Shown here: piece by piece, positions 10,797-58,813 of the stretch
How the letters are laid out: each line of letters starts with the position of its first letter
Numbering within the stretch: position 1 is the first letter of the stretch
Sequence record: NZ_CP041325.1
DNA: 64,000 bases
Direction: 5' to 3' (one strand)
Source: a plasmid
Made by a program: the position numbers and the translations under genes
Notes under the pieces: model-generated
The model's database searches: none
Told to the model about the DNA's origin: nothing
The model's input: the letters and a program-made list of their open reading frames with translations, nothing else

Positions 10797-10919
10797 AGCG
10801 TTCGTAAAAGTGTCTTAATTTCGCGAACGTTCGTAAAGTCATTTGACACGTTTACGAACGCTGTTTTAGCCGTTTAGCCCTTTTCAAAGCGTTCGTAAAA
10901 GTGTACTTTTACGAACGCT
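10797..10919. promoter_or_regulatory. res site: three subsites of the CGTTCGTAAA family including perfect palindrome CGTTCGTAAAAGT-GT-ACTTTTACGAACG
   Basis: Directly upstream of the resolvase gene. Repeated half-sites at 10797, 10826, 10850 and 10888-10919. Confidence 0.7.
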
Positions 10920-10935
10920 TTAAAAGTATAGTGGC

Positions 10936-11124
10936 ATGTATAAAAAGGGAATAAAGGAGAATTCGGCGAATTACCTGTTTAAGGAAATAAACCAATTGTT
11001 AAAGAAGACAACTAGGGGCGAGGGAGTGATTCGTTTTATTCGATATGAAGAGGATCAAATGTATTTAGAATTCACAGAAATAGAACCGGCTGTAAGTTTA
11101 ACGGAATTTGTAAAATATCTATAA
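10936..11124 (+). CDS. hypothetical small protein (62 aa)
   Basis: ORF only. Confidence 0.25.
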   Translation: MYKKGIKENSANYLFKEINQLLKKTTRGEGVIRFIRYEEDQMYLEFTEIEPAVSLTEFVKYL

Positions 11125-11261
11125 GATGAAGAAATCACAAGACGAAAGGATGCCTTGGCGATGGCTTTCAAAAGCAAAAACAGAAAGAAATCCAGGCAGT
11201 CTTCCGAACTTTGCTCGCCTGAAATCATGAATTGAAAAATTTGCCGAAAGGATGTGATGAT

Positions 11262-11653
11262 ATGACGATTAACGTATTTATCAGCTATGACTACACCAGC
11301 GATAAAGAGTATGCATCCTTATTAAAAGCTTGGGCTGAAAACGATGCCGAACATTTTAAGAACATTAATTTTATTGATGGTTCTAGCGATTTTCAAGAGA
11401 ATCTACTAAAGTGAACGCCTTCAAAAATTCAATTTCAAGAAGAATGAATGCGTGTGATAAAATACTTGTTTTAGTTGGAAAAGAAACCTACAAAAGTGAT
11501 TGGTGTAAATGGGAGATCAAGAAAGCTGAAGAACTTGAGCTTGATTTTGCAGCAGTTAACATTGAACATGCAAATGCATCTCCCATCAGCTTGTACGGAA
11601 AAGGAGTAAAAGGGCGAGAAGTTTTACTGAAGCAGCCATTGAAAGCGTCTTAA
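11262..11653 (+). CDS. TIR-like DUF1863 protein (Thoeris ThsB-like), one frameshift at ~11412
   Basis: MTINVFISYDYTSDKEY... and ...CDKILVLVGKETYKSDWCKWEIKKAEEL. The SxWvxWEI motif is typical of DUF1863. RBS GAAAGGA. Confidence 0.6.
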
Positions 11654-11823
11654 CGTAAGATCAAATCAACATGTGGATGTTTATAAGCTTTTACCTTTTC
11701 GAGGGTTTAACTTAAGCTAGGCAGTTTCTTTTGTAGTTAGAATTTTAATAGGTTTACATATCTTCACTTATAGGAAGCAGCAACCTAAATTAATCTTCAA
11801 TTGGCGTTGCTACAGTTACATGT

Positions 11824-11860
11824 AAAACAGACAGCCGACTTGCTCAGGCTGTCTGTTTTA
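11824..11860. terminator. bidirectional rho-independent terminator
   Basis: AAAACAGACAGCC-loop-GGCTGTCTGTTTTA. Confidence 0.6.
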
Positions 11861-12143
11861 ACTCTAGAGATAGACTTTGTGGCTCAGTTTTAATGATTAC
11901 TGGACAAACTGCTTACCGATTCGCACCTATAATAATGAAGTGTATTGAAAATAATAGTTAATTATTTAAAAATTTAATTATTTAATAGAAAAAGTTTTAT
12001 TTCTTGCTATACTAAAAGCTAAAAGAAGAGATACATGGGGCAGAGAAACGGGGAGTGAGAATGCTTTTGAAATCAAAACACTTTAAAGAAATTATTAATC
12101 TACAAGTATTTTTAATACATCCTTTTCAAGGGAGTGAAGAAGT

Positions 12144-12281
12144 ATGGAGAACTTTTTAATTCTATTTTCTCCTTACCTCATTGGCTTAGCGCTATGCTTA
12201 GGAATCAGCTCGCTTATCGCAAGTATTTTAGAAAATAAGAAAAACACTAATTCAAGTAGAAAGAGGATATCATTATAAACT
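12144..12281 (+). CDS. small membrane peptide (45 aa)
   Basis: Strong RBS AAGGGAGTG. Hydrophobic core LILFSPYLIGLALCLGISSLIASIL. Confidence 0.3.
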
Positions 12282-12392
12282 ACCTCTTTGATAAGAAGAA
12301 CCGCGGAGAGAACGGGCAAACAATCATTAACGGAAATATTGGTTGAGTTGTATATTTGTTTGTCCGACTATCGCCTTGTGCTTTTGATCCGT

Positions 12393-12798
12393 TTATTTAC
12401 TCACTAACTCTTCAATGTATTCATAAGCAATTGCTTCATCTTCTGACTTGTAGAAAAACCCCTTGTACGTCATTGTATCCCTTGAATTGATGGTGAGGTC
12501 CTGGATTACTTCGCCTTTCTCGTCGAAAAAGACGGCGCGATAACTAAATGCGATATCCCCGATTGAGGGTGCCCTTTTGAAAAATGGTTTTGTTCAGATT
12601 GCTGACCAGATGATTAATCTCGCTTTCTTCGGTAATCTCCAGTAATTTTATTGAGTTCTCATCTGAAACAGCTATTTTGGAAACCTTTGCTGGCTCGATG
12701 CTTACAACTTTATGAGGGGCATAGGACCACGCAAAAGCCAACAGCAATAAGAATGGAACCGCTAGTACAACCCATTTGATCCACTTTCTTTTATTCAT
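12393..12798 (-). CDS. hypothetical membrane-anchored protein, one frameshift
   Basis: RBS AAGGAGG. N-term TM MNKRKWIKWVVLAVPFLLLLAFAW. Confidence 0.4.
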
Positions 12799-12928
12799 AA
12801 GAAAACCTCCTTGACGGATAGAGAGCGCTATAAATGTCAGCTGCCGCTTCTTAATCACTTCCTAGCATTCGAATGGAAAGTAAGGAAAAAGTAAACATTG
12901 CCGGTTGTTCAAAGGAATCGTGCAGAAT

Positions 12929-13490
12929 TCAGCAGCTAGCTTCATATAGGTCCGTTTCGGGTTTGGGGCAATAGGTTGCTTCGCTGGGCGGAAGATTTAA
13001 AGCAGTGGTGAAACGCTGGATCGGTCCAGGCCAATCAGTTTTCCAGATTTCCGAGTAGTGGTGGTTCGTATACGCAGCGATGACGTTTCGCCAAAATTTC
13101 TGTGCAGGAAGATTGGTTTCCAACTCCGCCACTTCCCATGTTCCAGGATAGAGATCAAACAAATACCAGGCAGCCTGTTTGCCGATGCCTTCCTTCCGGT
13201 ATTTTCTCAGGATGAAAAATTCGCAGATTTTGTAATAGGAGGAGGTCTGGAGCTCCGCCGAAGTGATTTCTCGTACCAAGGCGAATCCTGCCAGTTTTCC
13301 GTCCACTTTGATCAGAAATGGGAAGTGGCCAGAAACGCCAGTAATAGTCCAGATACTTGTATCCATATGAGCCTTCTTAGTTTACATCTTCCGATTCGAA
13401 TTCAGTGAACTCGTACTGGTACAACTCCAGCAAGTTGCGCAAAACATTCCGTTGTTCGATCGTTGGCTGCAAGATTTCTAGTTTCATCAT
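12929..13490 (-). CDS. GNAT family N-acetyltransferase, two frameshifts
   Basis: Acetyl-CoA motif FFILRKYRKEGIGKQAA. N-term MMKLEILQPTIEQRN... lies in a shifted frame. Confidence 0.6.
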
Positions 13491-13872
13491 ACGTCCTCCG
13501 TTCTAGTTATATACTCTTTTTCTTTTTACTACTGGTAGACTCGTTTGCCATTCCGGTTCTCAAAGAAAAATAGATACTTTTTCTAGAAAACCTTCCCCGA
13601 TGTTCGTTCAGTGAATGAAGTACGGCCAGCGGTAACGCCGGCAAAATCGCTCCTGTATGCGAATTTTATTGTTCTCTTTATTAAAGAAAGTTCAAGCTGG
13701 TCAGACCCAAAGAGATTCCAGTGCTTAAATATATCCCCACTATAAAGAAAGAAAGTGAAATCCAGATGAAAAAAACAAGAAAAAGGGGAAGAAATGCTTT
13801 ATTTTCTTCCCTTTTCTTATTTTACTAGTATCCCTGCTATTTTAACTAAGAAATGCCGAAAAAGTGATCCAC

Positions 13873-14420
13873 TCAAGGCTTAAAAGCTCTGTATGCCCTC
13901 AATGTTCCGACAATCGTCGAAAACTGCCTTGTCTCTTCAATGGCCACAAAACCGGTTTCCTTAAGCAAATCCGGGATGATGCCTTGAACATGCGGTGAAG
14001 TGGTTTCAAATCCGTCCATGAATTGGACAGGGAGAAAGGCCACGCGCATCAGCGCGTTTTGTGGCTTCTCGAAATCCAGGACATGGAATTGGCCGCCCGT
14101 TTTAAGGACCCGGCAAACTTCTTTAAACGTTTCCAGCTTCTTCTCCACAGTCAGATGATGGATGAACAGACTGGTGAAGACATGATGAAACCGGTTACTA
14201 GAAAAGGGAGCTGTTCCGAAAAGCCTTCCACAAAGTGGATCGATTCAGCACGGTTTTCTTTCATCTTCTTTTCGCAATAGCCAGGATTTCGGGATCGGCA
14301 TCGAGTCCCATTACATGCACGCCGGAGTGGGATTGCTGAAGCAAAAGGGCGAGCGTTCCAGTACCACACGCCAAGTCCATTGTCAGCTCGCCCGGTTGAA
14401 GGGCCGCCTGGTTGACCAGA
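13873..14420 (-). CDS. class I SAM-dependent methyltransferase, two frameshifts
   Basis: DLACGTGTLALLL motif I. ...LKTGGQFHVLDFE post-II. Confidence 0.6.
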
Positions 14421-14542
14421 TGTATTTTCATCTTTTTTCTTGCATGCCCCGTTCGATTAGCGGGTCATAAAACGAGTCAGCCAACGGTACTTGAGTGCCG
14501 GTATATAAGCTCTTTTCGGAGTTTCCTTCATAAAATCGTCTC

Positions 14543-15250
14543 CTATCGTAGACTGCCCTGGTCAGTAACTTCCACGATGAACGGAAAGGCGAGGACGCCT
14601 GTATCAGCGAAGTGGAACTCCGCCCATAATTTGTAAAATCCTGCAGACGGAAATCGGACTTGAAATATGGGATGGTCTTTGGATGATGGATGCACATGGA
14701 TAAATCGCTTTCCTTGCTCGTCCAGCACAACAACATGCCCCAACGCTCCCAAATACAGCAGAGGGATTCTCCGTTCAAATCAAAGACAGCGTAGCCGGTT
14801 CGCCGGCCGTCAATTTCGGATGCTGAAAAGTAACGGTTTTTCCTTGAATTTCTTTGGTCGGACGGTCACTTTTCACAAGCTTGCTGAAATCGTTAGCGAT
14901 GCTTTCGGTTTCTTCTCCGACCATTAGCAACACTGGCTCAATGACATAAATTCCTTTGATTGGGCTGATGTCTGCAAAGAGGAAATATCGGCCAGAGGGG
15001 AGGTTTACTTTCACTTCAAAATCTCCTGAAATTGTTTCTATCGGATGAACGTGTAAAAGGTCTCTAAGTCGGCACTGACGATTATCAAATGTAGACTCTT
15101 TTCATGATCCTTTAACAGCTCAACCGTCATGTCTTTCGCGTCGCGGACTTGAATCAGTATCCGGTCGGAGCGATAGACGGCATTCACATAGACGCTAGGT
15201 AGCTTGTAATTCATTTTATGATGCGAATGGTGTTCATGCTTCAAATGAAA
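14543..15250 (-). CDS. His-rich putative metal-binding protein (YtkA-like), frameshifted
   Basis: N-term KHEHHSHHK. Three consecutive ORF pieces on the same strand. Confidence 0.3.
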
Positions 15251-15269
15251 CGCCTCCTCTTTTAGGTGA

Positions 15270-16718
15270 GTCTATTCGGATTCAATTACAAATTCAATTG
15301 TCTCCCGGTCGGAAATCGTCGGAAGTTGATAGGATTGCTGGTAGTTTTCATGGCCTTTGCCGGTGATTACAACCCAATCGCCCGTCTTGCTTTCGTTGAT
15401 TGCTTTTGAATGGCGACTGTCCGATCCGGAATTATGCTTCCCTTTTCATTACCGTAAGTCTCATTTAGTCGTTTTAAGTCGTCCACCATCTCGATTTGCG
15501 ACACCGTGTTCAGGTCATCCAATGTCAAAATGTACCGGTCACTCCATTCTGCGCTTATCGACAGCATGGCGCTTCGCTTGCTAGGGTCCCGGTCCCCACG
15601 AAAGCCAAAACATGGATAATCCGTTTGGCGCCCTGTAATTTTACGGTTTCCAAGCAGTAAGAAACGGCATCCGGTGTATGGGCATAGTCCACCACGACGG
15701 TTGAGCCATTGGTTAGTTTGGAAACTTCAAAACGTCCTTCGACCCCTTGAAATGTGGAACGGAATCCAAAAGCTTTTCTTTGGGAATCCCCAGAAGCCGT
15801 GAAGTTCCATACGCCATCAAGGTGTTGTACATATTGTGCATGCCGTTCATCGCTGAGTCCATTTGGTACGTTTCGTTCCTTTCCTCCACCAGCATCGTGG
15901 AGGTCGTTGGGGTAAAGTAGACAACGCGCAGATCGCAGTCAGAGGACCTGCCAATCGCATACACCGATTTCCCTTCCCTTTGCAGGGTTTCCGTAAGCTT
16001 TCGCCCCACACATTATCCGCATTCACCACAGCGGTTCCGTTCGCTTTCAACTGATGGAACATCAAAAGCTTCGTCTGGAAGTACTCCGCCATGGAGCCGT
16101 GGTAATCCAGGTGCTCCGGATGAAGATTGGTAAACAAGCTGTAATCAAATGTAATACCTGCCAAACGGTGTTGGGCCAATCCGTGAGAAGAGACCTCCAT
16201 GATGATGACCTCATCGCGGCTGAGGGATAATAGCTTGTGCAAAGCCAGCGAACTGGGCGTGGTGTTGGCGCTTTTCGTCTTCTGACCATTGATCACATTT
16301 TGATGGTCCCGATGACAGCACAAGTCATCCCGTTGTTTTCTAGAAAATGCTGCAGCATGTAACTTGTGGTCGTTTTCCCATTGGTTCCTGTTATGCCAAT
16401 CATTACTTTCTCTTTGGACGGATGCCCATAGAAATTCCTCGCCATTATGCCAAGGGCTTTGCGGCTATTCTCCACTTGAAGATAAGGGATGGATAGGCCG
16501 GTGATTTCCTGTTCTCCCACGACCACTAAAGTGCCTTTTTCAATTGCTTGTTCAATATACTGATGGCCATCACTTTTAAAGCCTGCAATGGCGACAAAGA
16601 CGAATCCTGCCTCGACATCTCTGGAATTATCGGCAATGCCTTGGATATCTAACTCTAACGTGCGGGAATTCAACCGATTAATCAAATCAATTTCCTGCAA
16701 AAGTTGCCTTATTTTCAT
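15270..16718 (-). pseudogene. murE: UDP-N-acetylmuramoyl-tripeptide ligase MurE paralog, ~5 frameshifts
   Basis: DSRDVEAGFVFVAIAGFKSDGHQYIEQAIEKG, GITGTNGKTTTSYML, FTNLHPEHLDYHGSMAEYF. C-term ...GKGHENYQ. Confidence 0.7.
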
Positions 16719-16895
16719 TGATTGGGTAACCTCTCTCAAACAATTTAAATTCGATTTATTCTATAAGATGGATGTTGAGAAAGTGTGCAGAATTCAAACC
16801 AAGCACTCTCATAAGAAAACTTAATTTTCTTGTAACACAAATGAAGTCTATCGTTTTCTAGAGGGAACAGTAGCACGGTTTGTTCATTCCAATAA

Positions 16896-26516: not shown

Positions 26517-27015
26517 ACTTCCACCTCCTGCTTTGTATATTCCAGTGAAAGGCCCTCTGGCTTTAAAACTTGATTTAAAATTCTTTAATTACCTCATTAT
26601 CTATGCTTGAAGTGGAATTTTTCCATCTCGCGAAGTCTAGTCAGAGGCAAGGTCTATAATTACTTTAGTTTTACCACGTTTCCTATTGCTTATCAATTTA
26701 AGTTGTTTAATGGAAGTATATACTCATTATGTGATGGAATAGAGGGATTCCGACAGATGCTAAATTAGTTTACATATCATGAGTTTTATCGGAAGTTGCA
26801 TAAATAGAAAAGGAGAGAAGAGGCCAAACAAAGCACATCTTGTCTCCTTTTCCATTTGATATAGTGTACTTTTACAAACGGTTTCTTCACCTTAGAAATA
26901 TTTGAAAAATTTTTATAGAACTTTCAATTTAAAGGTGCTTTCAAACTTTAATATTTATTTTACGAAAACAAAAGTACTTCCAACTATATGGAAGTCCTTC
27001 GGATGTTACAAATGA

Positions 27016-27213: not shown

Positions 27214-27536
27214 ATCAAACTCTCCTTTCTTATATTAATTTGAATAAGAGATGTTACTATTTAAGAAATTAGATAACTTGATTGTATCATATAGTTCCTT
27301 ATTTGGCAGAGAATTCCTTATTACTATAAGTTCGTTTATAGTAACTTGATTATTTTATTAAAAGAAAAGATAGTTTTAGTACGTTGATAGATTTCAAGTT
27401 TTTGTTTACATATGAAGGCTTATCGGAAGTCATAAATAAAGAAAAGGGAGATGCTGGCTGAACTGAACCCCAAATGGTAAACACTTAAAAAGTGACCCCA
27501 TTTGGGTTCGGTTCAATACCTAAGCCGCTCCCCATT

Positions 27537-28649
27537 TTATTCTTTTCTTTTATTGCTGGAATCCATTCTCTTTAAAACGGAACGCTGCTCTTCCTGGCTA
27601 ACGTTCATGTACAGTGAGGTGGTTTCGATACTATTATGGCCGAGCTGATCACGTAAAGCGGGAAGGGAGCCGCCTTCGTCCAGAAAGCCTTTCGAAAAGG
27701 AATGGCGAAGTTTGTGAGGGCTAAGACGTTTGCCGTCCATAAATGCTTCCGAATACTTCTTCACAAGCTTTTCGATGCTCTCAACCGTAATCGGATTGGC
27801 TTTTCCACGGTATTTCGTCAAAAGACAAACTGATTCTTTTATCAGGCTTATAGAGCCAGTCCCGCTCTTCTAAATACTCTTTTAAGTCCTGCATAGCCGT
27901 TTCAGTCACGCTTATGGTATCAAGCTGGTTGCCTTTGCGGAGGGCGGTAATGTCACCATGGACCGTATCAATATCCGCCAACAACAGTCCTGCCACTTCA
28001 TTAACCCGGGCGCCAGAACCCTGTAAAAGCGAAATGATGGCAATGTCGCGCAACCGATTATGCTCGAAACGTGCTGCTGCACGAGATTCAAGAGTATTCA
28101 CGTAATCGCGTTTTACAAAGTTAAGAAAATCAGTCATTTGCTTGCCGCTGTACATGCTGGCACTGATCCGTTTGGAGCGGAAGGCCGTTGATTCCTGCTT
28201 TTTCGGTGTTTTGATTTTAGCCATTACGTTCCGATAAAAATAACACTCGCCATCATCACTTTCGCTTTCCTGCGTCAAGTAATTAAAAGCGACTTCAACG
28301 ATTGAATGAAGCGGTTTGTGCTATCTGCCGATCGCTTAACAAAGACGCCTTCATTTTTCTCGATTTTCTCTTCCATCAGCATTTCAATGAACAACTCAAT
28401 GTCTTTCTTCTGAAGCTTCTCCAGGACGGTGTAAGGCACGTCTTTGGTCGTTTCTGCAGTTGCTAATCCTTCTTGCCGCAGCCAGTCGAAGAAGCGCTTG
28501 TAATCATGCAGGTAACCGCTCAAAGTAAGGGAAGAGTAGGATGCCCGCTTTTTAGAACGGATGTATTCCACAACATAAAAGGGCATATCTTGAATAGCTT
28601 GCTCGATGTGCTGTTCGGCTAAAATGGTTTTTCGCGTTGGTGCAGGCAT
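27537..28649 (-). CDS. tyrosine site-specific recombinase/integrase, two frameshifts
   Basis: C-term HKLRHSF...LGHNSIETTSLYMNV (R-H-R-Y motifs). Confidence 0.75.
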
Positions 28650-39344: not shown

Positions 39345-39710
39345 TTGGCAAAAGATATTTGTGATGTGGTCTGTATAGATGAAGAAAAGGTGGAACGAGT
39401 CCAGCAACAATTGGCGGAACAGAATCCATTGGAAGTGGCGAAAATCTTCAAGGCGTTGTCGGATGATACGCGTATCAAGATTGCCTATGCCTTATCGCTG
39501 GAAGACAAACTTTGTGTGTGCGACGTGGCGAATATCATCGGCTCTTCCACCGCAACCGCCTCCTACCACCTGCGCTTGTTGAAGAATATGGGACTCGCGA
39601 AATACCGCAAGGAAGGCAAATTGGTCTACTACTCGCTGGATGACGCACATGTAAAGCACTTGGTGCAAGTGGCCTTCCTTCAACAGAAAGAGGGTGTCAC
39701 GGTTGGTTGA
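39345..39710 (+). CDS. cadC: CadC, ArsR/SmtB-family Cd/Pb/Zn-responsive repressor
   Basis: N-terminal [34 protein letters not shown]. Confidence 0.85.
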
Positions 39711-42143
39711 AAAAACAAAGGAAACCGAAGACAAAACCGTTTACCGGGTTGAAGGCTTCTCGTGTGCGAACTGCGCGGGGAAATTCGAAAAGAACGTCAA
39801 GCAGATTCCTGGAGTCCAGGATGCGAAAGTGAACTTCGGAGCTTCCAAAATTGCGGTTTACGGCGCAGCGACGGTCGAGGAATTGGAAAAAGCCGGTGCC
39901 TTTGAGAACTTGAAAGTGGCACCGGAAAAACCGAAACGCCAACCGGTTCCCGAAATGAAGGTGGCAGTCGAAGACAAAAGTGTTTACCGGGTCGAGGGCT
40001 TTTCGTGCGCGAACTGCGCCGGGAAATTCGAGAAGAATGTGAAGCAGATTCCGGGCGTCCAGGATGCCAAAGTGAATTTCGGTGCATCTAAAATTTCTGT
40101 TTACGGAGCAGCGACCATCGATGAACTGGAGAAAGCCGGTGCCTTTGAAAACCTGAAGGTGGCGCCTGAAATCACCGGACGTCCAGCTATCCCGAATACC
40201 GGAACCGAAAAAGCGCCAGAACGAACAGAGAAGAAAGTGCCGTTCTACCAAAAGCATAGTGTCCTGCTCTACTCCGCCCTGCTGATCGTCTTCGGGTACG
40301 TTTCCCAATCGGTGAACGGAGAAGAAAACTTACTGACGTCCCTCCTGTTTGTGGCAGCCATTGCCATTGGCGGGTACTCGCTCTTCAAGGTCGGGTTGCA
40401 GAACTTGGTACGTCTGGATTTCGACATGAAGACCCTCATGACCGTCGCGGTCATCGGGGCAGCCTTTATCGGCGAATGGGCGGAAGCGTCCATCGTGGTC
40501 ATCCTCTTTGCGATCAGTGAAGCACTGGAACGCTATTCGATGGACCGGGCCCGGCAATCCATCCGTTCGTTGATGGACATTGCGCCGAAAGAGGCACTGG
40601 TCCGGCGGAATGGCCAGGAACTTCTAATCTCGGTGGACGACATTGTGGTGGGCGACACCATGATTGTCAGACCCGGCCAGAAGATTGCAATGGATGGCAC
40701 GGTGACTAACGGCTATTCGGCGGTCAATCAGGCAGCAATTACCGGTGAATCCGTGCCGGTTGCCAAGACCGTGAACGATGACGTCTTCGCCGGCACGCTG
40801 AACGAAGAAGGCTTGCTGGAAGTCCAAATCACCAAACTGGTCGAAGACACGACCATCGCAAAAATCATTCATCTGGTCGAGGGAAGCGCAGGGCGAACGC
40901 GCCCCATCACAGGCATTTGTCGACAAGTTCGCGAAATACTACACACCGATCATCATGGCAGTAGCTGCACTCGTGGCCATTGTTCCGCCTCTTCTGTTTG
41001 ATGCCAGCTGGGAAACCTGGGTTTATCAAGGATTAGCTGTTTTAGTGGTAGGTTGTCCGTGTGCGTTGGTTATTTCGACACCGATTTCAATCGTATCGGC
41101 CATCGGGAACGCAGCGAAAAAAGGCGTGCTAATCAAAGGCGGCGTCTACTTGGAGGAAATGGGTGCACTGAAGGCCATCGCGTTTGATAAGACCGGTACC
41201 CTGACTAAAGGAGTTCCGGTTGTAACGGATTTTGAAGTTATAAACAAACAAATAAACGAAAAAGAGCTGCTTTCCATCGTGACAGCGCTGGAGTACCGCT
41301 CGCAGCATCCCCTTGCCTCCGCCATCATGAAAAAAAGCGGACGAGGAAAATATCCCTTATACCTCTGTCTTAGTCGAAGAGTTCTCTTCCATCACCGGCA
41401 AAGGAATTAAAGGAACTGTCGAAGGAATTACGTACTACATCGGCAGCCCGACCCTCTTTACCGAGTTGGGCGCCGCAAGTACGGATAAGAACTTGGAACA
41501 AAATGTCACAGCTCTTCAAAATCAGGGCAAGACGGCCATGATCATCGGAACGGAACAAAACATCCTGGCGGTCATCGCCGTGGCCGATGAAGTCCGGGAC
41601 TCCAGCAAGGAAGTCATCCAGAAGCTGCACGACATGGGCATCAAGAAGACGATCATGCTGACGGGCGACAACAAAGCGACCGGTCAGGCCATCGGCCGAA
41701 AGGTCGGTGTCACGGAAATCCAGGCCGAGCTGATGCCGGAAGACAAATTGAATGTCATCAAACGCTTACGGGCCGAGTACGGCAAGGTGGCGATGATTGG
41801 AGACGGCGTGAACGACGCGCCGGCACTCGCCGCTTCTACCGTCGGGATTGCCATGGGCGGTGCTGGAACCGATACGGCTTTGGAAACGGCAGATGTCGCT
41901 TTGATGGGCGACGATTTGAGCAAGCTGCCATTCACGGTGAAACTCAGCCGGAAATCCCTGAATATCATCAAAGCGAACATTACGTTCGCCATCGGCATCA
42001 AAGTGATTGCGCTGCTGTTGGTCATTCCGGGCTGGCTGACCCTGTGGATCGCCATCATGTCGGATATGGGTGCTACTCTCCTGGTCGCCCTCAACAGTTT
42101 ACGGCTGATGCGCGTAAAGAATAAAGAAACAGCGTGCACCTGA
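39694..42143 (+). CDS. cadA: cadmium/zinc P1B-type ATPase CadA with two tandem N-terminal HMA domains, two frameshifts (~40900, ~41390)
   Basis: 2x [21 protein letters not shown] ([12 protein letters not shown]), [17 protein letters not shown]. Confidence 0.85.
39731..40210 (+). repeat. two ~240-bp tandem direct repeats (~85% identical) encoding duplicated HMA domains of cadA
   Basis: [41 protein letters not shown][A/S]VYGAAT[V/I][E/D][16 protein letters not shown] occurs twice. Confidence 0.8.
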
Positions 42144-52419: not shown

Positions 52420-52432
52420 AGAATGTGCTCCT

Positions 52433-52792: not shown

Positions 52793-52877
52793 GATGGTTT
52801 CTCCTCCATTACGAGATTAGAATAGACGCATGTAGCACTGAGAAAGAAAGCCGTGATACCCGATCACGGCTCTTTGA

Positions 52878-53297
52878 TTACTTGCCTGTTTCTGCGAATT
52901 CTCGGATACGGGCACCGATTTCATCACGGACGTTCTGGAAGACCGCCCATTTCTCCTCATCGGTTCCTTCCGCTTTCGCCGGATCTACAAATCCCCACTG
53001 ATCGCGCTTCACGTGAGGCGGCGTCATCGGGCATTTGTCCGCGGCATCGCCACATAATGTCACGACAAAGTCTGCATTGTTCAGAATGTCCAGGTCAATA
53101 ATGTCTGAAGTCTGATTCGAAATGTCGATATCCACTTCGTTCATCGCTTTTACCGCATTCGGGTTCAGCCCGTGTGCTTCGATGCCAGCGCTCAATACCT
53201 GCCACTCGTCTCCAAGGATTTCTTTCCCCCACCCTTCCGCCATTTGGCTGCGGCATGAGTTTCCTGTGCAGAGGAAATACAATGTTTTTTTCGTCAT
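52878..53297 (-). CDS. arsC: thioredoxin-coupled arsenate reductase ArsC (LMW-PTP family)
   Basis: [14 protein letters not shown]. Confidence 0.85.
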
Positions 53298-53330
53298 AAT
53301 GATAAACTCCTTTTGGATAAATAGATTTTT

Positions 53331-54629
53331 TTAGAGAATCAATAACCACAAATACAATCCGATGAGGGTTGCGAGAAGCGTCGGAATCGTCAAGATGATG
53401 CCGACCTTGAAATACGTTCCCCATGAGATTTTCACCCCTTTTAAGGATAGGACGTGCAGCCACAATAGCGTAGCGAGCGACCCGATTGGGGTGATTTTCG
53501 GACCCAAATCCGATCCGATGATGTTCGCATAAATGAGTGCTTCCCGGATGGTTCCGGTTGTCTGCGTCTCAGATATAGCGAGCGCATTGATCATCACCGT
53601 CGGCATGTTGTTCATCACCGACGACAGGATAGCCGCAATGAAGCCCATCGAAATCGTGGCGACAAACAAGCCTTGCTCCGCCGCCACCTGAATGACATCT
53701 GCCAACACGCCAGTCAAGCCGACATTCCGCAGTCCGTAGACCACGACGTACATGCCGAGTGAGAAGAAGACGATGTTCCACGGCGCGCCGCGTAAAATGA
53801 TGCGCGTCCGGACCGCTGGGCTTTTTTGTGCCATCAATAAAAAGAAGATGGCAATGATGCCGGCCACGATGGAGACTGGGACCCCCAAAAAGTCACTGGA
53901 GAAATACCCGATCAGCAACGCCGCCAAGACAAACCACGACAGGCGGAACATCTTGTGGTCCTTGATGGCGTCGTTCGGCTTTTTCAAATTCGCCACTTCG
54001 TAGTTTTTTTGGAATGTCTTTCCGGAAAAACAAATACAGCACCAAAATACTGGCCACTAACGCAAACAGGTTCGGGACAATCATCCGGGAGGCGTATTCC
54101 GCAAACCCGATGCCGAAAAAAGTCGGCCGAGACGATGTTCACTAAGTTACTGACAACTAACGGCAACGAGGTCGTATCCGCAATAAACCCGCTGGCCATG
54201 ATGAACGGAAAAATCATCTTTTCCGAGAAATTCAAATTCCGGACCATCGCCAAGACGATTGGCGTCAAAATTAAGGCTGCCCCATCGTTCGCAAACAACG
54301 CCGCCACAAAGGCACCGAGTATGCTGACAAAGACAAACATGCGCAAGCCGTTCCCTTTGGCGATTCGCGCCATGTGAAGCGCTGCCCATTCGAAGAAGCC
54401 GATTTCGTCCAAAAATCAATGAAATGATGATGATGGCGATAAAGGCCAGTGTGGCATTCCACACAATTCCAAATACATCTGCTACATCTTGAAAATCAAC
54501 GACTCCAACCAACAAAGCAAGTACTGCCCCGCCAATAGCCGACCAGCCAATCGATAGATTGCGTGGCTGCCAGATGACGAGTACCAGGGTGAGGAGGAAG
54601 ATGACCGATGCTAAAATTCCTTGTACCAT
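53331..54629 (-). CDS. arsB: arsenite efflux pump ArsB (ArsB/NhaD family), about 2-3 frameshifts
   Basis: [22 protein letters not shown]..., [28 protein letters not shown]. Confidence 0.8.
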
Positions 54630-54642
54630 TTAGTTCCCTCCA

Positions 54643-55005
54643 TTATTCACAACTGATTCGCAGTCCTTGTTTCTCCAATTCCTTCATTCGCTCATCCTGA
54701 CTCGGAATAACCTCCAGAATATGCAAGACCATGTCGTACAGTTCGCTGTTTTTGTTCAATGAATAGAAAATCCATTGGCCTTTCCGGTTTTCTTTCACCA
54801 ATCCGACATCGCGGAGTTTCCGCAAATGCTGGCTGATGGCTGACTGGCTGATGTTGAAGATGGCCACAAATTCGCAGACGCAGCACTCGTTCTTCTCCAA
54901 GAGCTTCATCATCGCAAGCCGCGTCTTGTCTCCAAGTAATTTAAGGACAATACTGGCTTTCTCGATTTCAATTTCCTTCGCTTTCACTTCCATCTGTTTT
55001 TTCAC
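54643..55005 (-). CDS. arsR: ArsR arsenic-responsive repressor
   Basis: ECCVCEFVAIFNISQSAISQHLRKL. Confidence 0.85.
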   Translation of the reverse strand: MKKQMEVKAKEIEIEKASIVLKLLGDKTRLAMMKLLEKNECCVCEFVAIFNISQSAISQHLRKLRDVGLVKENRKGQWIFYSLNKNSELYDMVLHILEVIPSQDERMKELEKQGLRISCE

Positions 55006-55160
55006 CTCATTCTACGGGTTGTATCGTTTTTCGATTAAGTAGGATTTCTTTCGTTACCTGTTTGTAATCCAATAACAGCATATCAGCATATACTTATATG
55101 TTCAAGTCTCTATTTGTAATTGTGTTTCATCCTTTCACTGACAATATGATTACGGGAATA

Positions 55161-55200
55161 AAAAAAGAAAGACGGAGGATTAAGCAGCCGTCTTTCTTTT
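55161..55200. terminator. terminator between the ACR3/BASS-like gene and arsR
   Basis: AAAGAAAGACGG-loop-CCGTCTTTCTTTTTG. Confidence 0.65.
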
Positions 55201-55213
55201 TGTATATTTACTA

Positions 55214-56164
55214 TTAAGCTGTTTTTCTTTTAAGGAGCAATAGTTGAGATGCGATGGCCAATATAGGCAATTCAATCAGCGGGCCAATGACCAAGGCTAA
55301 CGCAATCAACGGCTGATCCGGAAAAGCGATGACCGCAATGGCCAACGAAACGGGCGAATTGCGGGCGATAATCGTCAGGCTTAAGCTCACCGTATCTTCA
55401 TAGGAAAATTTCAGCGCTTTTCCCACCGATTGCGCCCCGATAAAGTTGATGCCAAAGAACAGCAAAACCGGCAGCAGCAAGATGGAAATGACTTCAAGGT
55501 TGTCGAGCAGGTACTTCCCTTGCGAAGCAAACATCGCCAGGATCGCCAGGGACAAAAAGAAAATCTGTGCCGTAGCGAAAAAAGGCACGAGTTTCTCATT
55601 CAAGAAGGCCCCCCTCTTCCGCAAGGCATAGCGCGTCACATGCGCCAGGGTGAATGGAATGACCAGCACCAGGACAATGCTTTCACCGATGGTCGCCAAC
55701 GGGATCGGTTCAATTGTGCCGGCGAAAATGAATAGGTAGACCGGCAGCAGCACGACCTGCAGAATCAAATTAATCGGCAAAACGGACGTGGACAAGGGGA
55801 CATTCCCTTTGGCAATGGACGTGAACATCAAGTACCAGTCGGTACAAGGCGTCACCATCAGCATGATAAACCCAATCCACAAGGCTGGATGGTCCGCAAG
55901 GAAAACTGCCCCCAGTCCCCATGCCACCAAAGGCGTCCAGACAAAATTGATAAGGATGCTGGCATTCAAGAACTTGCGATTTTTAAAAGCATTTTTCAAG
56001 TGCTGCAAGGGAATGTTGAGAAAGAGTCCATAGAGCATCAGCAACAAAAATGGCACGATGAAAGATCCAGCGTGTTGTTCAAAAAAGGGGATTTGACCGA
56101 ATAAAAGACCAATCCCCACTGCGGTTAAAATAATGACGGTTTGAAATTTCTCGAATGTGTTCAT
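55214..56164 (-). CDS. ACR3/BASS-family membrane transporter (arsenic-resistance-protein-like)
   Basis: 316 aa, ~10 TM. NFVWTPLVAWGL resembles the ACR3/BASS core. Confidence 0.45.
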   Translation of the reverse strand: MNTFEKFQTVIILTAVGIGLLFGQIPFFEQHAGSFIVPFLLLMLYGLFLNIPLQHLKNAFKNRKFLNASILINFVWTPLVAWGLGAVFLADHPALWIGFIMLMVTPCTDWYLMFTSIAKGNVPLSTSVLPINLILQVVLLPVYLFIFAGTIEPIPLATIGESIVLVLVIPFTLAHVTRYALRKRGAFLNEKLVPFFATAQIFFLSLAILAMFASQGKYLLDNLEVISILLLPVLLFFGINFIGAQSVGKALKFSYEDTVSLSLTIIARNSPVSLAIAVIAFPDQPLIALALVIGPLIELPILAIASQLLLLKRKTA

Positions 56165-56603
56165 GATGACACTCCTTGTATAATAGAGAGAAAGTGCGCG
56201 CGACCGACTCTTCTCTATTAGGATAACGGAAGTGGCATTCGATTACTTTGTTAATCTTGACTTTGAATCCGAACGGAGGAAAAAATCTTAAAAAGCCATC
56301 AGTGGGAAGCAATTTCCAGCCATGACCATAGCTATCACGGGGAATTCTGTTACGCCCTCTCCACTACCAAAATATACTCTGGCCTTCTAGCCCTTCCCTT
56401 ACCCACAACTCCCAAAATGTAGAAGATTTTTTCCAGGGGAGAAGAGACCGCTGGTTTCCGTTAAGCAAATTGGCCACCAGCACAAGTGCTTCATCGAAGC
56501 GATCGGTGTCAGTGGAATTCCGTCAGTTGCGGCTGCGTCACCTGCCGCAAAAACAAACGGATTATGTGGAGTTTTGGTAAATCTCCAATGAATCTCTCCC
56601 TTT

Positions 56604-58244
56604 TTAACCGGCGCAGCAAGACAGTTGGGAAACATCCTTGTCGAACGTTAGCGCAGCCAGTTTCATCCCTTCCGCCATGGTCAGATACGGCGCGAGGGTT
56701 TCGTTAAGGTTTTCAATCGTCAATCCGAACTTCACAGCAAGTGTTACCGCATAGATAACATCCCCAGCATTTTCCGCTACGATATGCCCGCCCAGCAGCT
56801 GGCGTGTTTTTGCGTCCGCCACCAGTTTGAATACCCCAGTCGTTTCCCGGTTCACTTGCGCTCGCGGAACAGCCTCCAATGGCAGGACGGAAGTAATGAC
56901 GTCATAGCCGTTTTCTTTCGCCTGTTGCTCCGACAAACCAACCGTGGCAACCGCCGGTGCTGTAAACGTTACGCCCGGCACGACGGCTAAATCCAGTTTT
57001 TCACTCCGTCCACCGACCGCATTTCCTGCTGCCACTCGCCCTTGATAAGCCGCCACATAAACAAACTGGGGACCGAGCGTCACATCGCCCGCTGCATAGA
57101 TCCGTTCATTGGTGGTCTTGGCATAGTCATCAATCCGAATTTCCCCAAAGCGCCCTGTTTCAACACCCGCCGCCTGCAGATTCAAGCTTTCCGTATTGGG
57201 CTTTCGGCCAGCTGCAATCAGCAATTGATCGGATTCGATGATCCGCTTCTGGCCATCCACCTCGACATAAACTTTTTTCACCTCTCCGACCTGTTCAATC
57301 CGCTCATAAGAGGCACCGGTCACTAACCGAATGCCTTGCTCGGTCAACGCTTTCGTGAGGGCTTCCGAGATTTCCGGATCATATTCCTTAAACAAACGCG
57401 AACTTCTTTGCATCAGCGTGACTTCGGATCCGAGGTGGTGAAATAGCTGACCCAATTCCACACCAGTATAGCCGGAACCGATGACCGTCAAGCGTTTCGG
57501 CACTTTCTTTAGCTCCAATAAAGCTGTGCTGGTCAAGTAATCCACTTCTTCCAGTCCGGAAATGACTGGCACAGCAGGAGCCGCCCCCGTTGCAATCAGA
57601 AATCGTTTGGCAGATAGCTTCATGCCATCCACTTCAATGGTATGTTCATCTATAAACCTGGCTTCCCCTTTGATCAACTCAAAACCGTAGTCATCAATCA
57701 AATCGACATATTTCTTGTTCCGGAGATCCGTCACCAATTCCTCTTTCTGTTTGACCAGCTGAGCCAAATCCACTTCATCCGCAGAGGTGTGCAGTCCGAT
57801 AAACGGGTTATTCCTGGCCAAGTGATTGATTTCTCCCGCCCGCAACAAGGTTTTGGAAGGAACACAGCCAATGTTCACACAGGTACCGCCTACCGTTCCC
57901 CGTTCAATCATCGCCACTTTTGCCCCATGTTTCACAGCTTCGATGGCGGAAGAAAAGGCAGCTCCCCCCGAACCGATGATGATGTAGTCATACTCACCTT
58001 CTTCATCCGGGTGGGGTGCTTCTGGGGTTTGGACTTCTTCCGCTTCCCCCGGCTGATACTTGGCTTCAGCAATTGCTTTTTTTGCCGTTTCAACTGCCAT
58101 GTCTTCCGGCAGTGCAAACACGGCTTTTCCTTTTAGGAAGTCCGCTTGAATCTCTTTTGCGCCAATTCCGTCGAGCGCGACTGCAATGTGTTCTTCGCAT
58201 CCTGCGCAAGTCATCCCTTGAACATCTATTCGATAATTTTTCAT
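56604..58244 (-). CDS. merA: mercuric reductase MerA with N-terminal HMA domain
   Basis: [23 protein letters not shown] redox disulfide. C-terminal CC. Confidence 0.9.
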
Positions 58245-58247
58245 GTT

Positions 58248-58649
58248 CTACTCCTCCTCCATCAATACATCAATTATCGGGCATTCATGCAGTTCTTTTT
58301 CATTTGGACACCGGTCTTTCAACTCGCTCAGCATCCGTTCCGCACGCTTTAGATCCTCAATCTGCTTTCGGACTTCCACTTCTTTTTTGGAAACAAAATC
58401 GAACATATCTTCACAGCGTACATCGTCTTTGTCGACCACCCCTAACAACTTGTAAATCTCATTTAACGAAAATCCCAGTTCCTGCAGTCGCCGGATAAAT
58501 CCTACTCGTTTGACCGTTTCCTCTGAATAAATCCGATACCCCGAATTATTCCGGATCGGTTCTTGTAATAGCTCTTTTCGTTCATAGTATCGAATGGTTT
58601 CCTTATTCACTTCACATAGGGTTGCAAGTTCACTGATTCGATAGCTCAA
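58248..58649 (-). CDS. merR: MerR mercury-responsive regulator
   Basis: N-terminal HTH ISELATLCEVNKETIRYYE. Cys at C, ...C, and HECP. Confidence 0.85.
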   Translation of the reverse strand: MSYRISELATLCEVNKETIRYYERKELLQEPIRNNSGYRIYSEETVKRVGFIRRLQELGFSLNEIYKLLGVVDKDDVRCEDMFDFVSKKEVEVRKQIEDLKRAERMLSELKDRCPNEKELHECPIIDVLMEEE

Positions 58650-58667
58650 TTTTCTTCACCTCTGAAA

Positions 58668-58699
58668 AGTATAAACCATGTACTTAGGTACATGGTCAA
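58668..58699 (-). promoter_or_regulatory. mer promoter/operator: -35 TTGACC, perfect dyad ACCATGTAC-TTAG-GTACATGGT inside a ~20-bp spacer, -10 TATACT
   Basis: Classic MerR-type long-spacer promoter immediately upstream of merR. Confidence 0.7.
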
Positions 58700-58783
58700 A
58701 CATCTACACTTCAATACTTTCTTTCTATATATAAAATTTCAAGTTACTAAAACTAGATTTAAAATAGTCGTTTATTAAAATAA

Positions 58784-58813
58784 AGCGTTCGTAAAAGTAC
58801 ACTTTTACGAACG
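58784..58813. promoter_or_regulatory. res-like palindrome CGTTCGTAAAAGT-AC-ACTTTTACGAACG (inverted copy of the res core at 10888-10919)
   Basis: Arms identical to the resolvase-adjacent site. Central dinucleotide AC vs GT. Confidence 0.6.

What the first reader, a model, noticed from the sequence alone, without database searches (positions are those of the whole stretch)
10797..58813. Two copies of the same resolvase res core palindrome, in inverted orientation 48 kb apart, bracket the entire metal-resistance island
CGTTCGTAAAAGT-GT-ACTTTTACGAACG lies at 10888-10919 next to the resolvase, and CGTTCGTAAAAGT-AC-ACTTTTACGAACG lies at 58784-58813 next to merR. The arms are identical and the central dinucleotide is reverse-complemented, i.e. 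the same site flipped. Serine recombinases cut at the central dinucleotide, so recombination between these sites would invert the ~48-kb cop/cad/czc/ars/mer segment rather than delete it. Alternatively they are relics of two Tn3-family (TnMERI1-like) transposons inserted in opposite orientations. One would have brought merR-merA, the other the defence island.
Basis: seen in the sequence. Interest (0 to 1): 0.6.

Follow-up and report, generated by a model that had tools for sequence, protein, structure and literature searches.

The report
Resolvase crossover site and solitary copy
The two palindromes are real copies of the DNA-cutting site of a plasmid resolvase, one inside a complete resolution site and one standing alone beside the mercury genes, and comparison with about 70 related loci shows that such copies mark where gene modules have been swapped or inserted, not a proven 48-kb flip switch.

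Summary
CGTTCGTAAAAGT-GT-ACTTTTACGAACG (10890-10917) and its exact reverse complement (58786-58813) are the only two full copies in the window. None is expected by chance.

Site A is crossover subsite I of a three-subsite res, 137 bp upstream of a Sin/gamma-delta-like small serine recombinase. That gene is broken in this assembly by two A-run frameshifts. Site B is a solitary subsite I with no accessory subsites, between merR-merA and a conjugative backbone (RadC/JAB, ArdC).

The palindrome occurs in 68 loci of Planococcaceae and Bacillaceae. The GT centre points the same way relative to the accessory sites in 49 of 50 sites that have them. About 14 copies are solitary.

The mer module is 99.97% identical to a metagenome contig where it follows a complete res, and identity stops at the site. 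Homology blocks end at these sites about 30 times more often than chance.

Many loci, and the window at 26853-26880, also carry hybrid sites (variant left arm, canonical right arm) behind a conserved motif and hairpin. This suggests arrays of modules integrated at subsite I.

No Tn3 transposase or terminal repeats were found. Inversion is geometrically possible and has a staphylococcal precedent, but it could not be tested here.

The parts
10163..10753 (-). Small serine recombinase (resolvase) gene. It is read in three frames in this assembly because of a 1-nt and a 2-nt deletion at A-runs (near 10494 and 10198).
   Evidence: Pfam Resolvase hit on the N-terminal ORF. tblastn with the intact 205-aa homologue of L071 gives 99%/90%/83% identity in frames -1/-3/-1. 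Alignment with four intact homologues places both indels at A-runs. The closest solved structure is Sin/Bin3, 2r0q, E=3.5e-26; gamma-delta resolvase scores 7e-19.
10799..10829 (+). res accessory subsite III: inverted pair CGTTCGTAAAAGT ... TTTCGCGAACG, about 31 bp, nearest the resolvase start codon. A TATAAT hexamer lies on the gene strand at 10784-10789.
   Evidence: Read from the sequence. Half-site match at 10799-10811. These arms are conserved at 70-90% or more in the consensus of 53 res sites.
10830..10862 (+). res accessory subsite II: inverted pair CGTTCGTAAAGT ... GTTTACGAACG, 33 bp.
   Evidence: 10848-10860, 1 mismatch. This is the best-conserved block of the 53-sequence res consensus.
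10890..10917 (+). Site A: res subsite I, the crossover site. It is a perfect 28-bp palindrome with a GT centre, extended to 36 bp by AAAG...CTTT.
   Evidence: Homology with more than 20 plasmids ends at 10917-10923.
10936..11850 (+). First cargo module after site A: a small ORF and a ThsB-type TIR gene (11232-11653, frameshifted), followed by the module-end motif at about 11753 and a hairpin.
   Evidence: Pfam ThsB_TIR, E=4e-10. Motif match and the sequence downstream of it. The same flank follows a complete res in L013 and L036.
26766..26880 (+). Module-end unit: motif GTTTACATATCATGAGTTTTATCGGAAG, a hairpin with a T-run, then the hybrid site I* (CATTTGATATAGT-GT-ACTTTTACAAACG, 26853-26880). 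It has the same orientation as site A.
   Evidence: (D2, I2). The hairpin folds at -20.4 kcal/mol, z = -4.2.
56604..58649 (-). merR-merA cargo module, transcribed away from site B. The mer operator-like palindrome lies at 58674-58697.
   Evidence: NCBIfam MerR and MerA equivalogs. The module is 99.97% identical to L071 from 58813 down to 55833 and 92% identical to L001, L012 and L042. The palindrome at 58674-58697 is reported.
58786..58813 (-). Site B: a solitary subsite I, and the exact reverse complement of site A. There are no accessory half-sites within 115 bp on either side. A T-run abuts the arm on the backbone side.
58814..63463 (-). Backbone flank of site B: a hairpin at about 58865-58905, small ORFs, a RadC/JAB gene (60179-60718) and an ArdC-like gene (62318-63463). 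This is the end of a conjugative-transfer region.
   Evidence: Pfam RadC and ArdcN hits. It is 70-74% identical to the ArdC-VirD4-MobQ regions of Planococcus and Listeria plasmids.

Best explanation
Site A is the crossover subsite (I) of a complete, three-subsite res site belonging to a Sin/gamma-delta-like small serine recombinase. Together they form the multimer-resolution module of a Planococcaceae conjugative plasmid or integrative element.

Site B is a solitary copy of the same crossover subsite. It marks the res-proximal boundary of the merR-merA module. It is a junction made by resolvase-type strand exchange at the central GT: a module exchange or an integration at subsite I. Afterwards the mer module was no longer next to the accessory subsites that normally sit on that side.

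This is one instance of a wider pattern. In these plasmids the cargo downstream of res is built from modules delimited by copies of subsite I, either canonical or hybrid (I*: variant left arm, canonical right arm). In the window, one array runs rightwards from site A (ThsB module, I* at 26853). The mer/ars genes run leftwards from site B. So the two sites head two converging cargo arrays and are not the ends of a single island.

Shown: the identity of the sites, the res architecture, the conserved polarity, the breakpoints at the site, and one filled/empty pair of loci.

Inferred: that the resolvase made these junctions, and the order of events in the lineage of the window.
For: Site identity and architecture:
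- A resolvase domain lies next to site A.
- Four further conserved half-sites form two inverted pairs between subsite I and the gene, in the window and in the consensus of 53 res sites.
- The palindrome occurs in 68 genome loci of Planococcus, Planomicrobium, Peribacillus, Bacillus, Domibacillus and others.
- The accessory sites lie on the same side of the GT centre in 49 of the 50 sites that have them. About 14 copies are solitary.

Breakpoints at the site:
- Identity between the window and L071 is 99.97% on the mer side and stops at the first base of the palindrome. The res side of L071 is only 87% identical to site A's res.
- The same mer flank follows a complete res in L071, a res cut off after subsite II in L001, a solitary site in L012 and the window, and an I* in L042.
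- L042 equals the L071 arrangement plus 1.54 kb inserted exactly between subsite I and mer. The insertion is flanked by I and I*.
- The same solitary-site left flank (PemK/MazF toxin genes plus a hairpin) is joined to different cargo flanks in CP101820, L025 and L027. Those cargo flanks follow complete res sites elsewhere.
- 53 of 231 unique internal homology-block ends lie within 25 bp of an I or I* centre, against 1.8 expected.
- Contigs of Planococcus sp. CAU13 break at the palindrome, as expected for a repeat with different flanks.
Against: - No close relative of the window shows what lay next to site B or site A before the event. Exact-protein look-ups and one metagenome scan found nothing.
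- Solitary sites could also arise by deletion of the accessory sites. Some solitary sites keep part of the I-II spacer (L032 and L037), and CP025124 keeps a res cut off after subsite II.
- Wild-type Tn3-type resolvases need complete res sites on both partners (PMC2602789, PMC9943657). Recombination at a bare subsite I is therefore not expected to be efficient.
- The loci were collected by exact match to the palindrome. This enriches for intact sites and for the conserved res module, and inflates the breakpoint statistic.
- Simple integration gives direct repeats, so it does not explain how a site in inverted orientation arose.
Confidence: 0.65

Rival explanations
1. Active invertible segment. 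The resolvase recombines site A with site B and flips the 48-kb cargo region relative to the backbone, so the population holds both orientations.
For: The two sites are exact reverse complements with a non-palindromic centre, so only inversion is possible between them. The closest characterised relatives (Sin/Bin) do invert DNA between inversely oriented res sites in staphylococcal plasmids (PMC3276174). Both possible junctions, res|ThsB flank and res|mer, exist next to complete res sites in other genomes. Inverted I/I* pairs also occur in L038 and L051.
Against: Site B has no accessory subsites, and wild-type resolvases normally need them on both partners (PMC2602789, PMC9943657). The resolvase frame is broken in this assembly. 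Inversion would change no gene content, and no promoter-gene relation that it would switch was seen. At 48 kb the segment is far larger than known programmed switches. No isomer was found in public data, and L071's res is a different allele, 87% identical.
Confidence: 0.12
2. Site B is the last remnant of a second complete res, with its own resolvase, that arrived with the mer/ars module in inverted orientation. Its accessory sites and gene were later lost by ordinary deletion or replacement that happened to end at the edge of subsite I, for example under selection to stabilise a fusion of two replicons.
For: Relatives show stages of such decay. CP025124 keeps subsites I and II next to mer but no resolvase. 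L032 and L037 keep part of the spacer. L071 shows the intact state with the identical MerR protein.
Against: The breakpoint in the window lies exactly at the edge of the 28 bp, and the arm is perfect. The same is true of about 14 solitary sites with unrelated flanks, several of which share a left flank but differ in cargo. The hybrid I* sites have a conserved variant arm, not random sequence, which deletion does not explain.
Confidence: 0.18
3. Relics of two Tn3-family (TnMERI1-like) transposons inserted in opposite orientations.
For: Three-subsite res sites upstream of a resolvase gene are typical of Tn3-family elements. The resolvase also matches gamma-delta and Tn3 resolvases.
Against: The ORFs scanned with Pfam or NCBIfam (a subset of the window's ORFs) gave no Tn3-type transposase. 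The only two GGGG...TAAG candidates are no more than chance and are not placed as transposon ends. The mer region is merR-merA only. The annotated genes around the same res-resolvase module in the Planococcus plasmids inspected (pPS15-1, pKRIBB-KS-1-1, pKRIBB-KS-1-2) include no transposase. PLSDB gene tables are incomplete.
Confidence: 0.03
4. The palindromes are hairpins with another role, such as a transcription terminator or a regulator's operator, and are unrelated to recombination.
For: The consensus scan scores site B as terminator-like on the minus strand, a 12-bp stem with a T-rich tail.
Against: The same 28 bp lies at a fixed distance and polarity from accessory half-sites and a resolvase gene in about 49 loci. 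Site A has no T-tail. Homology breakpoints fall at the site.
Confidence: 0.02

Closest known systems
Sin recombinase/res of staphylococcal plasmids and BinL/BinR of Tn552, including the Bin-invertible segment between resL and resR
   Same: This is the closest solved homologue (2r0q, E=3.5e-26). It is a plasmid-borne small serine recombinase whose res lies just upstream of its gene. The res palindromes are recombination and insertion hotspots, and DNA between inversely oriented res sites is inverted in vivo (PMC3276174).
   Different: Sin res has two subsites, with a direct-repeat site II and an HU/IHF-bound spacer (established knowledge; PMC2428073). Here there are three inverted-repeat subsites. 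In the staphylococcal case the invertible segments lie between resL and resR and arise from Tn552-type insertion (PMC3276174). Here site B is a bare subsite I, and no Tn552-like transposon was seen.
Tn3 / gamma-delta resolvase and its 114-bp res (subsites I, II, III)
   Same: It has the same three-dimer architecture, with the crossover subsite furthest from the resolvase gene, a 28-bp subsite I, and cleavage at a central dinucleotide (PMC2602789, PMC9943657). Sequence similarity to gamma-delta resolvase is E=7e-19. The variant arm TGTYTRTAAAAGT resembles gamma-delta half-sites (from memory, not tested).
   Different: No transposase or terminal repeats were found, so it does not look like part of a Tn3-family transposon. 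The centre is the non-palindromic GT, and subsite I is a perfect palindrome. Subsite spacings are 28/33/31 bp, with a 27-bp I-II spacer.
pdif (XerC/XerD) modules of Acinetobacter plasmids, and integron gene cassettes
   Same: Discrete cargo modules without their own recombinase are bounded by copies of a site-specific recombination site and are found in many contexts (PMC12907356 for dif modules). New units appear to enter next to the complete site, as at attI. Each module end carries a structured element.
   Different: Those systems use tyrosine recombinases. Here the sites are crossover subsites of a small serine resolvase. In 17 of 20 cases they point the same way as the neighbouring subsite I, and they are hybrid (variant left arm, canonical right arm). 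Mobility has not been shown experimentally.
Association of small serine recombinases with anti-phage defence genes (RADS; PMC13552941)
   Same: A ThsB-type TIR gene is the first gene after res in the window. ATPase, methylase, nuclease and NB-ARC genes flank the homologous recombinases in L071, CP101820 and CP101821.
   Different: That study reports the linkage and postulates mobilisation or inversion, but defines no recombination sites (the terms 'res site' and 'recombination site' do not occur). Whether its bait protein EF_B0058 belongs to this subfamily was not tested.

Membership tests
Small serine recombinase (resolvase) with res site | N-terminal catalytic domain of the resolvase/invertase family with the serine nucleophile | tested here: met
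   Pfam PF00239, E=4.8e-16, on 10325-10753. The motif GYIRVSSKDQ is present. The gene is 99% identical over residues 1-87 to the intact L071 protein.
Small serine recombinase (resolvase) with res site | Intact reading frame, about 185-205 aa with a C-terminal DNA-binding domain | tested here: inconclusive
   Two frameshifts at A-runs. All three segments are otherwise conserved. Other genes in the window, including the P-type ATPase, also carry homopolymer indels. The frameshifts may therefore be assembly errors or real.
Small serine recombinase (resolvase) with res site | Crossover site: two inverted 12-13-bp arms around a 2-bp centre | tested here: met
   13-2-13 structure at both sites. The polarity of the GT centre is conserved in 49 of the 50 sites with accessory half-sites.
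Small serine recombinase (resolvase) with res site | Accessory subsites next to the crossover site, between it and the gene | tested here: met
   Met for site A: subsites II and III at 10799-10862, conserved in the consensus of 53 res sites. NOT met for site B: no half-site within 115 bp on either side.
Small serine recombinase (resolvase) with res site | Binding and cleavage of the site by the recombinase | not testable with these tools
   Needs a gel shift and an in vitro or in vivo recombination assay.
Tn3-family transposon (TnMERI1 / Tn5084-like) | Tn3-type DDE transposase of about 1000 aa | tested here: not met
   None among the ORFs scanned with Pfam or NCBIfam, which are a subset of the window's ORFs. 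No run of ORF fragments of that size is visible.
Tn3-family transposon (TnMERI1 / Tn5084-like) | Terminal inverted repeats of about 38 bp (GGGG...TAAG) with 5-bp target duplications | tested here: not met
   Two pattern matches against 0.67 expected, and 17 of 100 shuffles reach 2. Both matches are on the same strand, inside the island, and do not form a pair. No long inverted repeats other than the site itself were found.
Tn3-family transposon (TnMERI1 / Tn5084-like) | Sequence similarity of res to TnMERI1/Tn5084 res | not tested
Programmed DNA inversion switch (Hin/Gin/Bin type) | Two crossover sites in inverted orientation | tested here: met
   33-nt perfect inverted repeat, with 47,858 nt between the arms.
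Programmed DNA inversion switch (Hin/Gin/Bin type) | Both orientations present in a population or among close relatives | not testable with these tools
   No reads are available. Look-ups for near-identical contigs at both junctions found nothing.
Programmed DNA inversion switch (Hin/Gin/Bin type) | Inversion changes expression, for example a promoter or alternative gene ends at the boundaries | tested here: not met
   Both boundaries are intergenic. On the two inner sides a ThsB module and merR face away from the sites. The consensus scan found no promoter at either site itself.
Site-bounded cargo modules (integron cassettes / pdif modules as models) | The same module occurs in different contexts, with its boundary at the recombination site | tested here: met
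   The mer module lies next to a res, a solitary site or an I*. The cargo of L022/L023 also occurs in L075. L042 and L071 form a filled/empty pair. Breakpoints are enriched at the sites: 53 of 231 against 1.8 expected.
Site-bounded cargo modules (integron cassettes / pdif modules as models) | Excision as circles and re-integration | not testable with these tools
   Needs outward-facing PCR or recombination assays.

The most novel reading that the evidence does not exclude
Planococcaceae and Bacillaceae plasmids may carry a resolvase-based module-capture system, in which the complete res acts as a docking site.

Mechanism proposed: circular modules carry a hybrid crossover site and integrate at subsite I. 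The hybrid site has a variant arm, TGTYTRTAAAAGT, preceded by a conserved motif (TTTACATATCAnnAnnTTATCGGAAG) and a hairpin. Integration regenerates a perfect subsite I next to the accessory sites and leaves a hybrid or solitary site at the far end. Arrays of defence, metal-resistance and antibiotic-resistance modules build up in this way.

Site B and the I* at 26853 in the window would be such far-end junctions.

If true, this would supply the missing mechanism for the reported linkage between small serine recombinases and defence genes. It would also be a serine-recombinase counterpart of integrons and pdif modules.
Probability: 0.3. Interest if true: 0.8.

Novelty: new variant of a known kind. 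Interest (0 to 1): 0.5.

Why it matters
The pair of sites is, by itself, an ordinary kind of thing: a plasmid resolution site plus a recombination scar. What the comparison adds is that the crossover subsite of this res family recurs as solitary and hybrid copies. Those copies sit exactly at the borders of cargo modules carrying mercury, arsenic, toxin-antitoxin, macrolide and defence genes, and cfr lies about 550 bp from subsite I in a staphylococcal plasmid. The pattern is seen across many Planococcaceae and Bacillaceae genomes.

If the resolvase really makes these junctions, it is a route of gene capture by a small serine recombinase that has not been described. A 2026 study (PMC13552941) found small serine recombinases next to anti-phage genes and left the reason open. 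This would make that question directly testable.

For annotation, these 28-bp sites are useful markers of module boundaries. They are also places where short-read assemblies break.

Tried and rejected
- Search for the inversion isomer or an 'empty' backbone. Exact-protein look-ups for the genes next to both sites (59120-59485, 61363-61701, 10936-11124, 12929-13366) found nothing. A metagenome scan with a 22-mer from the backbone flank found nothing. Only merR gave contigs.
- The PLSDB search in 'near' mode found no close relative of either junction. The 'distant' mode only identified the backbone type. Nucleotide synteny with pKRIBB-KS-1-2 is too weak to reconstruct the ancestral order.
- Tn3-family reading. 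The Pfam/NCBIfam scans, which covered a subset of the ORFs, gave no transposase, and the terminal-repeat pattern matches no more than chance. Rejected.
- An RNA-element reading of the module-end motif. No Rfam family reaches its gathering score anywhere in the window. The hairpin looks like an intrinsic terminator. The role of the 26-nt motif remains unknown. A resemblance of its reverse complement to the XerS dif site is from memory and untested.
- Promoter and terminator scans at both sites gave nothing beyond scoring the palindrome of site B as terminator-like.
- I considered treating the resolvase as a pseudogene. I did not commit to that, because the P-type ATPase also carries homopolymer indels relative to relatives and several other genes are split across frames. 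This points to assembly error.

Full report
OBSERVATION

The window holds CGTTCGTAAAAGT-GT-ACTTTTACGAACG at 10890-10917 and CGTTCGTAAAAGT-AC-ACTTTTACGAACG at 58786-58813. With up to three mismatches these are the only full copies. None of 100 dinucleotide-preserving shuffles gives a match. The two are perfect reverse complements over 33 nt, because 5 nt of flank (CTTTA) on one side is shared. The description is otherwise correct.

WHAT SITE A IS

- The gene that starts at 10753 on the minus strand is a small serine recombinase (Pfam Resolvase).
- An intact 205-aa homologue from contig L071 matches the Sin/Bin3 structure best (2r0q, E=3.5e-26), followed by gamma-delta and Tn3 resolvases.
- Between the palindrome and the gene lie four more half-sites of the same kind. 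They form two inverted pairs of about 33 bp (10830-10862) and 31 bp (10799-10829).
- These are the best-conserved positions in a consensus of 53 homologous regions.
- This is the architecture of a three-subsite res with the crossover subsite I furthest from the gene, as in Tn3 and gamma-delta (PMC2602789, PMC9943657).
- It is the only resolvase gene in the window, and in this assembly it is read in three frames. The two indels lie at A-runs.
- The P-type ATPase at 39694-42143 also carries single-base homopolymer indels relative to its relatives. ArsB, XerS and ThsB are likewise split into fragments. I therefore cannot tell a pseudogene from homopolymer assembly error, and I lean towards error.

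WHAT SITE B IS

- Its left flank is merR-merA.
- Its right flank carries a hairpin, small ORFs, a RadC/JAB gene and an ArdC-like gene. This is the end of a conjugative-transfer region, as found in Planococcus and Listeria plasmids.
- No accessory half-site lies within 115 bp on either side. It is a bare subsite I.

RELATIVES

An exact-pattern scan of one genome per species found the palindrome in 68 loci, mostly Planococcus and Planomicrobium, with some Peribacillus, Bacillus, Domibacillus and others.
- The centre is GT/AC in 62 of them. A few have GC, CT/AG or AT.
- When all GT-centred sites are oriented by the GT, accessory half-sites lie on the same side in 49 sites. They lie on the other side in one doubtful case (L039).
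- About 14 sites are solitary, as site B is.
- Several genomes hold many copies. Contigs of Planococcus sp. CAU13 begin or end at the palindrome.

BREAKPOINTS LIE AT THE SITE

- Homology of the window's res-resolvase with more than 20 plasmids ends at 10917-10923. These include the S. aureus cfr plasmid pSA8589, where cfr lies on the cargo side.
- The MerR protein of the window is encoded identically on metagenome contig L071. There a 205-aa resolvase and a complete res precede merR-merA.
- The window and L071 are 99.97% identical from 58813 down to 55833, and the identity stops at the first base of the palindrome. The res side of L071 is only 87% identical to site A's res. L071 is therefore not the inversion isomer of the window. 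It does show a recent exchange at the site.
- The same mer flank follows a res cut off after subsite II in CP025124, a solitary site with a different left flank in L012, and a hybrid site in L042.
- L042 equals the L071 arrangement plus 1.54 kb inserted exactly between subsite I and mer. The insertion is flanked by subsite I and a hybrid copy.
- The flank on the ThsB side of site A follows complete res sites in L013 and L036.
- One solitary-site left flank (PemK/MazF toxin genes plus a hairpin) is joined to different cargo in CP101820, L025 and L027. Each of those cargo flanks follows a complete res elsewhere.
- Over all loci, 53 of 231 unique internal ends of homology blocks lie within 25 bp of a site centre, against 1.8 expected. 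This figure is inflated by the way the loci were collected.

HYBRID SITES AND MODULE ENDS

The window holds a third copy at 26853-26880: CATTTGATATAGT-GT-ACTTTTACAAACG. Twenty such sites (I*) were found in the loci and the window.
- All have the GT centre and a near-perfect right arm (0-1 mismatch), but a left arm with 3-6 mismatches.
- That left arm is not random. At positions the search did not constrain, it has G at position 2 in 16 of 20, T at position 3 in 20 of 20, and T at position 5 in 16 of 20. The consensus is TGTYTRTAAAAGT.
- Fourteen of the 20 are directly preceded by a stable hairpin ending in a T-run.
- Ten carry the motif TTTACATATCAnnAnnTTATCGGAAG 54-84 nt upstream.
- Seventeen of the 20 point the same way as the neighbouring subsite I. 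The exceptions are two in L038 and one in L051.
- In CP025124 the mer genes form a complete unit: subsite I, merR, merA, motif, hairpin, and a more degenerate copy of the site.
- pKRIBB-KS-1-2 has res followed by two I* sites and a long run of small genes, nearly all in the same orientation.
- The window has the motif at about 11753, 26766 and 27404, all in the orientation of site A.

A perfect right arm with a diverged but conserved left arm is what integration of a circle carrying a variant site into subsite I would leave at the far junction. The alternatives are exchange between a res and solitary sites, or repeated deletion.

MECHANISM

The best-supported reading is as follows.
- Site A is a working-type res.
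- Site B is a junction produced by strand exchange at the GT centre of a res that once preceded the mer module.
- Genes run away from each site: the ThsB gene on the plus strand from site A, and merR, merA, Acr3 and arsRBCDA on the minus strand from site B.
- The 48 kb therefore looks like two converging cargo arrays with a third site inside, not one bracketed island.

How an inverted copy arose is not explained by simple integration, which gives direct repeats. Three same-replicon pairs of a res and a solitary site in other records are direct: P. salinarum 9.3 kb, CANLRI010000009 14.5 kb, and CP101820 4.3 kb.

INVERSION

In staphylococcal plasmids, DNA between inversely oriented res sites is flipped by Bin (PMC3276174). 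Three points count against an active switch here.
- Site B lacks accessory subsites, which wild-type resolvases require on both partners (PMC2602789, PMC9943657).
- The resolvase frame is uncertain.
- No expression change would follow from inversion.

I could not test for heterogeneity among reads.

TN3 ALTERNATIVE

The ORFs scanned, a subset of those in the window, gave no Tn3-type transposase. The terminal-repeat pattern matches no more often than chance. The mer region is merR-merA only. This reading is rejected.

COMPARISON WITH KNOWN SYSTEMS

The recombinase and res are members of the resolvase family. The protein is closest to Sin. The site layout is closest to Tn3 and gamma-delta.

Res sites as hotspots of recombination are well known. 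In three full-text searches of the held library I found no description of solitary and hybrid crossover subsites that delimit cargo modules downstream of a small serine resolvase. The nearest analogues use tyrosine recombinases: integron cassettes and Acinetobacter pdif modules (PMC12907356).

A 2026 study links small serine recombinases to defence genes and postulates mobilisation, without defining sites (PMC13552941). The sites described here offer a concrete, testable mechanism for that linkage.

VERDICT

- As a single locus this is ordinary.
- The comparative pattern it led to is a moderately novel variant of site-bounded module systems and needs experimental proof.

Noticed in passing
window 26766-26880 (also 11753-11850 and 27404-27530): A recurring module-end unit: the motif TTTACATATCAnnAnnTTATCGGAAG, then a purine-rich hairpin with a T-run, then (at 26853-26880) a hybrid copy of the crossover site. 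The same unit occurs in L002, L008, L019, L022, L024, L025, L038, L042, L045, L066, L077 and CP025124. The function of the 26-nt motif is unknown, and no Rfam family matches.
   Followed up: partly
window 10163-10753, 11232-11653, 27537-28649, 39694-42143, 53331-54629: Many genes are split by frameshifts: the resolvase, ThsB, XerS, a P-type ATPase and ArsB. For the resolvase and the ATPase, alignment with relatives places the indels at homopolymer runs. The assembly probably carries long-read homopolymer errors, so the apparent pseudogenes should not be trusted.
   Followed up: partly
window 2300-10000: This region has very low G+C (28-31%) and almost no ORF longer than 150 aa. The ORFs that were scanned gave no Pfam hits. 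In the related plasmid pKRIBB-KS-1-2 the region between the ComEC-like gene and the resolvase holds NB-ARC and SAP-domain genes. It may be a defence region shredded by homopolymer errors.
   Followed up: no
L074 = NC_021230.1 (S. aureus pSA8589) 1-2391; also Proteus, E. coli, Providencia and Pasteurella plasmids: An 88%-identical resolvase-res module lies next to the multiresistance gene cfr. cfr is on the cargo side, about 550 bp from the crossover site, and homology with the window stops at the outer edge of that site. This hints that cfr travelled as cargo of this res family from environmental Bacillales.
   Followed up: partly
L075/L076 = NZ_CP101820.1 83016 and 2452; L056/L025 (P. salinarum); L026/L054: Complete res and solitary crossover site pairs in direct orientation bracket 4.3, 9.3 and 14.5 kb. 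The 4.3-kb segment carries a macrolide 2'-phosphotransferase and a PemK/MazF toxin-antitoxin pair. These are candidate excisable segments.
   Followed up: partly
loci L006, L059 (centre GC); L044, L049, L062 (CT/AG); L058 (AT): The same 13-bp arms occur with different central dinucleotides in Bacillus, Shimazuella, Peribacillus and Chryseomicrobium. Different overlap dinucleotides would keep res subfamilies from recombining with each other.
   Followed up: no
window 27537-28649 (-): A XerS-like tyrosine recombinase (NCBIfam PRK05084, E=2e-44, on one fragment), split into three ORFs, lies about 650 bp from the hybrid site. Related Planococcus plasmids carry xerS in the transfer backbone. The reverse complement of the module-end motif (CTTCCGATAA...) vaguely recalls the XerS dif site (from memory).
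   Followed up: no
window 58674-58697: The perfect palindrome GACCATGTACCTAAGTACATGGTT lies between site B and merR. It looks like the MerR operator of the merR-merA promoter.
   Followed up: no
window 56165-56603: Downstream of merA, on the mer strand, the sequence seems to encode a fragment of a second pyridine-nucleotide-disulfide oxidoreductase, judged by eye from a ...FVFAAGDAA... reading. In CP025124 the mer unit instead ends there with the motif-hairpin-site unit. The window's mer module has therefore lost or replaced its far end.
   Followed up: no
window 1-2300: G+C is 53-58%, against 28-50% elsewhere. This stretch holds a metallo-beta-lactamase-fold (ComEC/Rec2-like) gene split in two (57-871). 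It is 74% identical to pKRIBB-KS-1-2.
   Followed up: no
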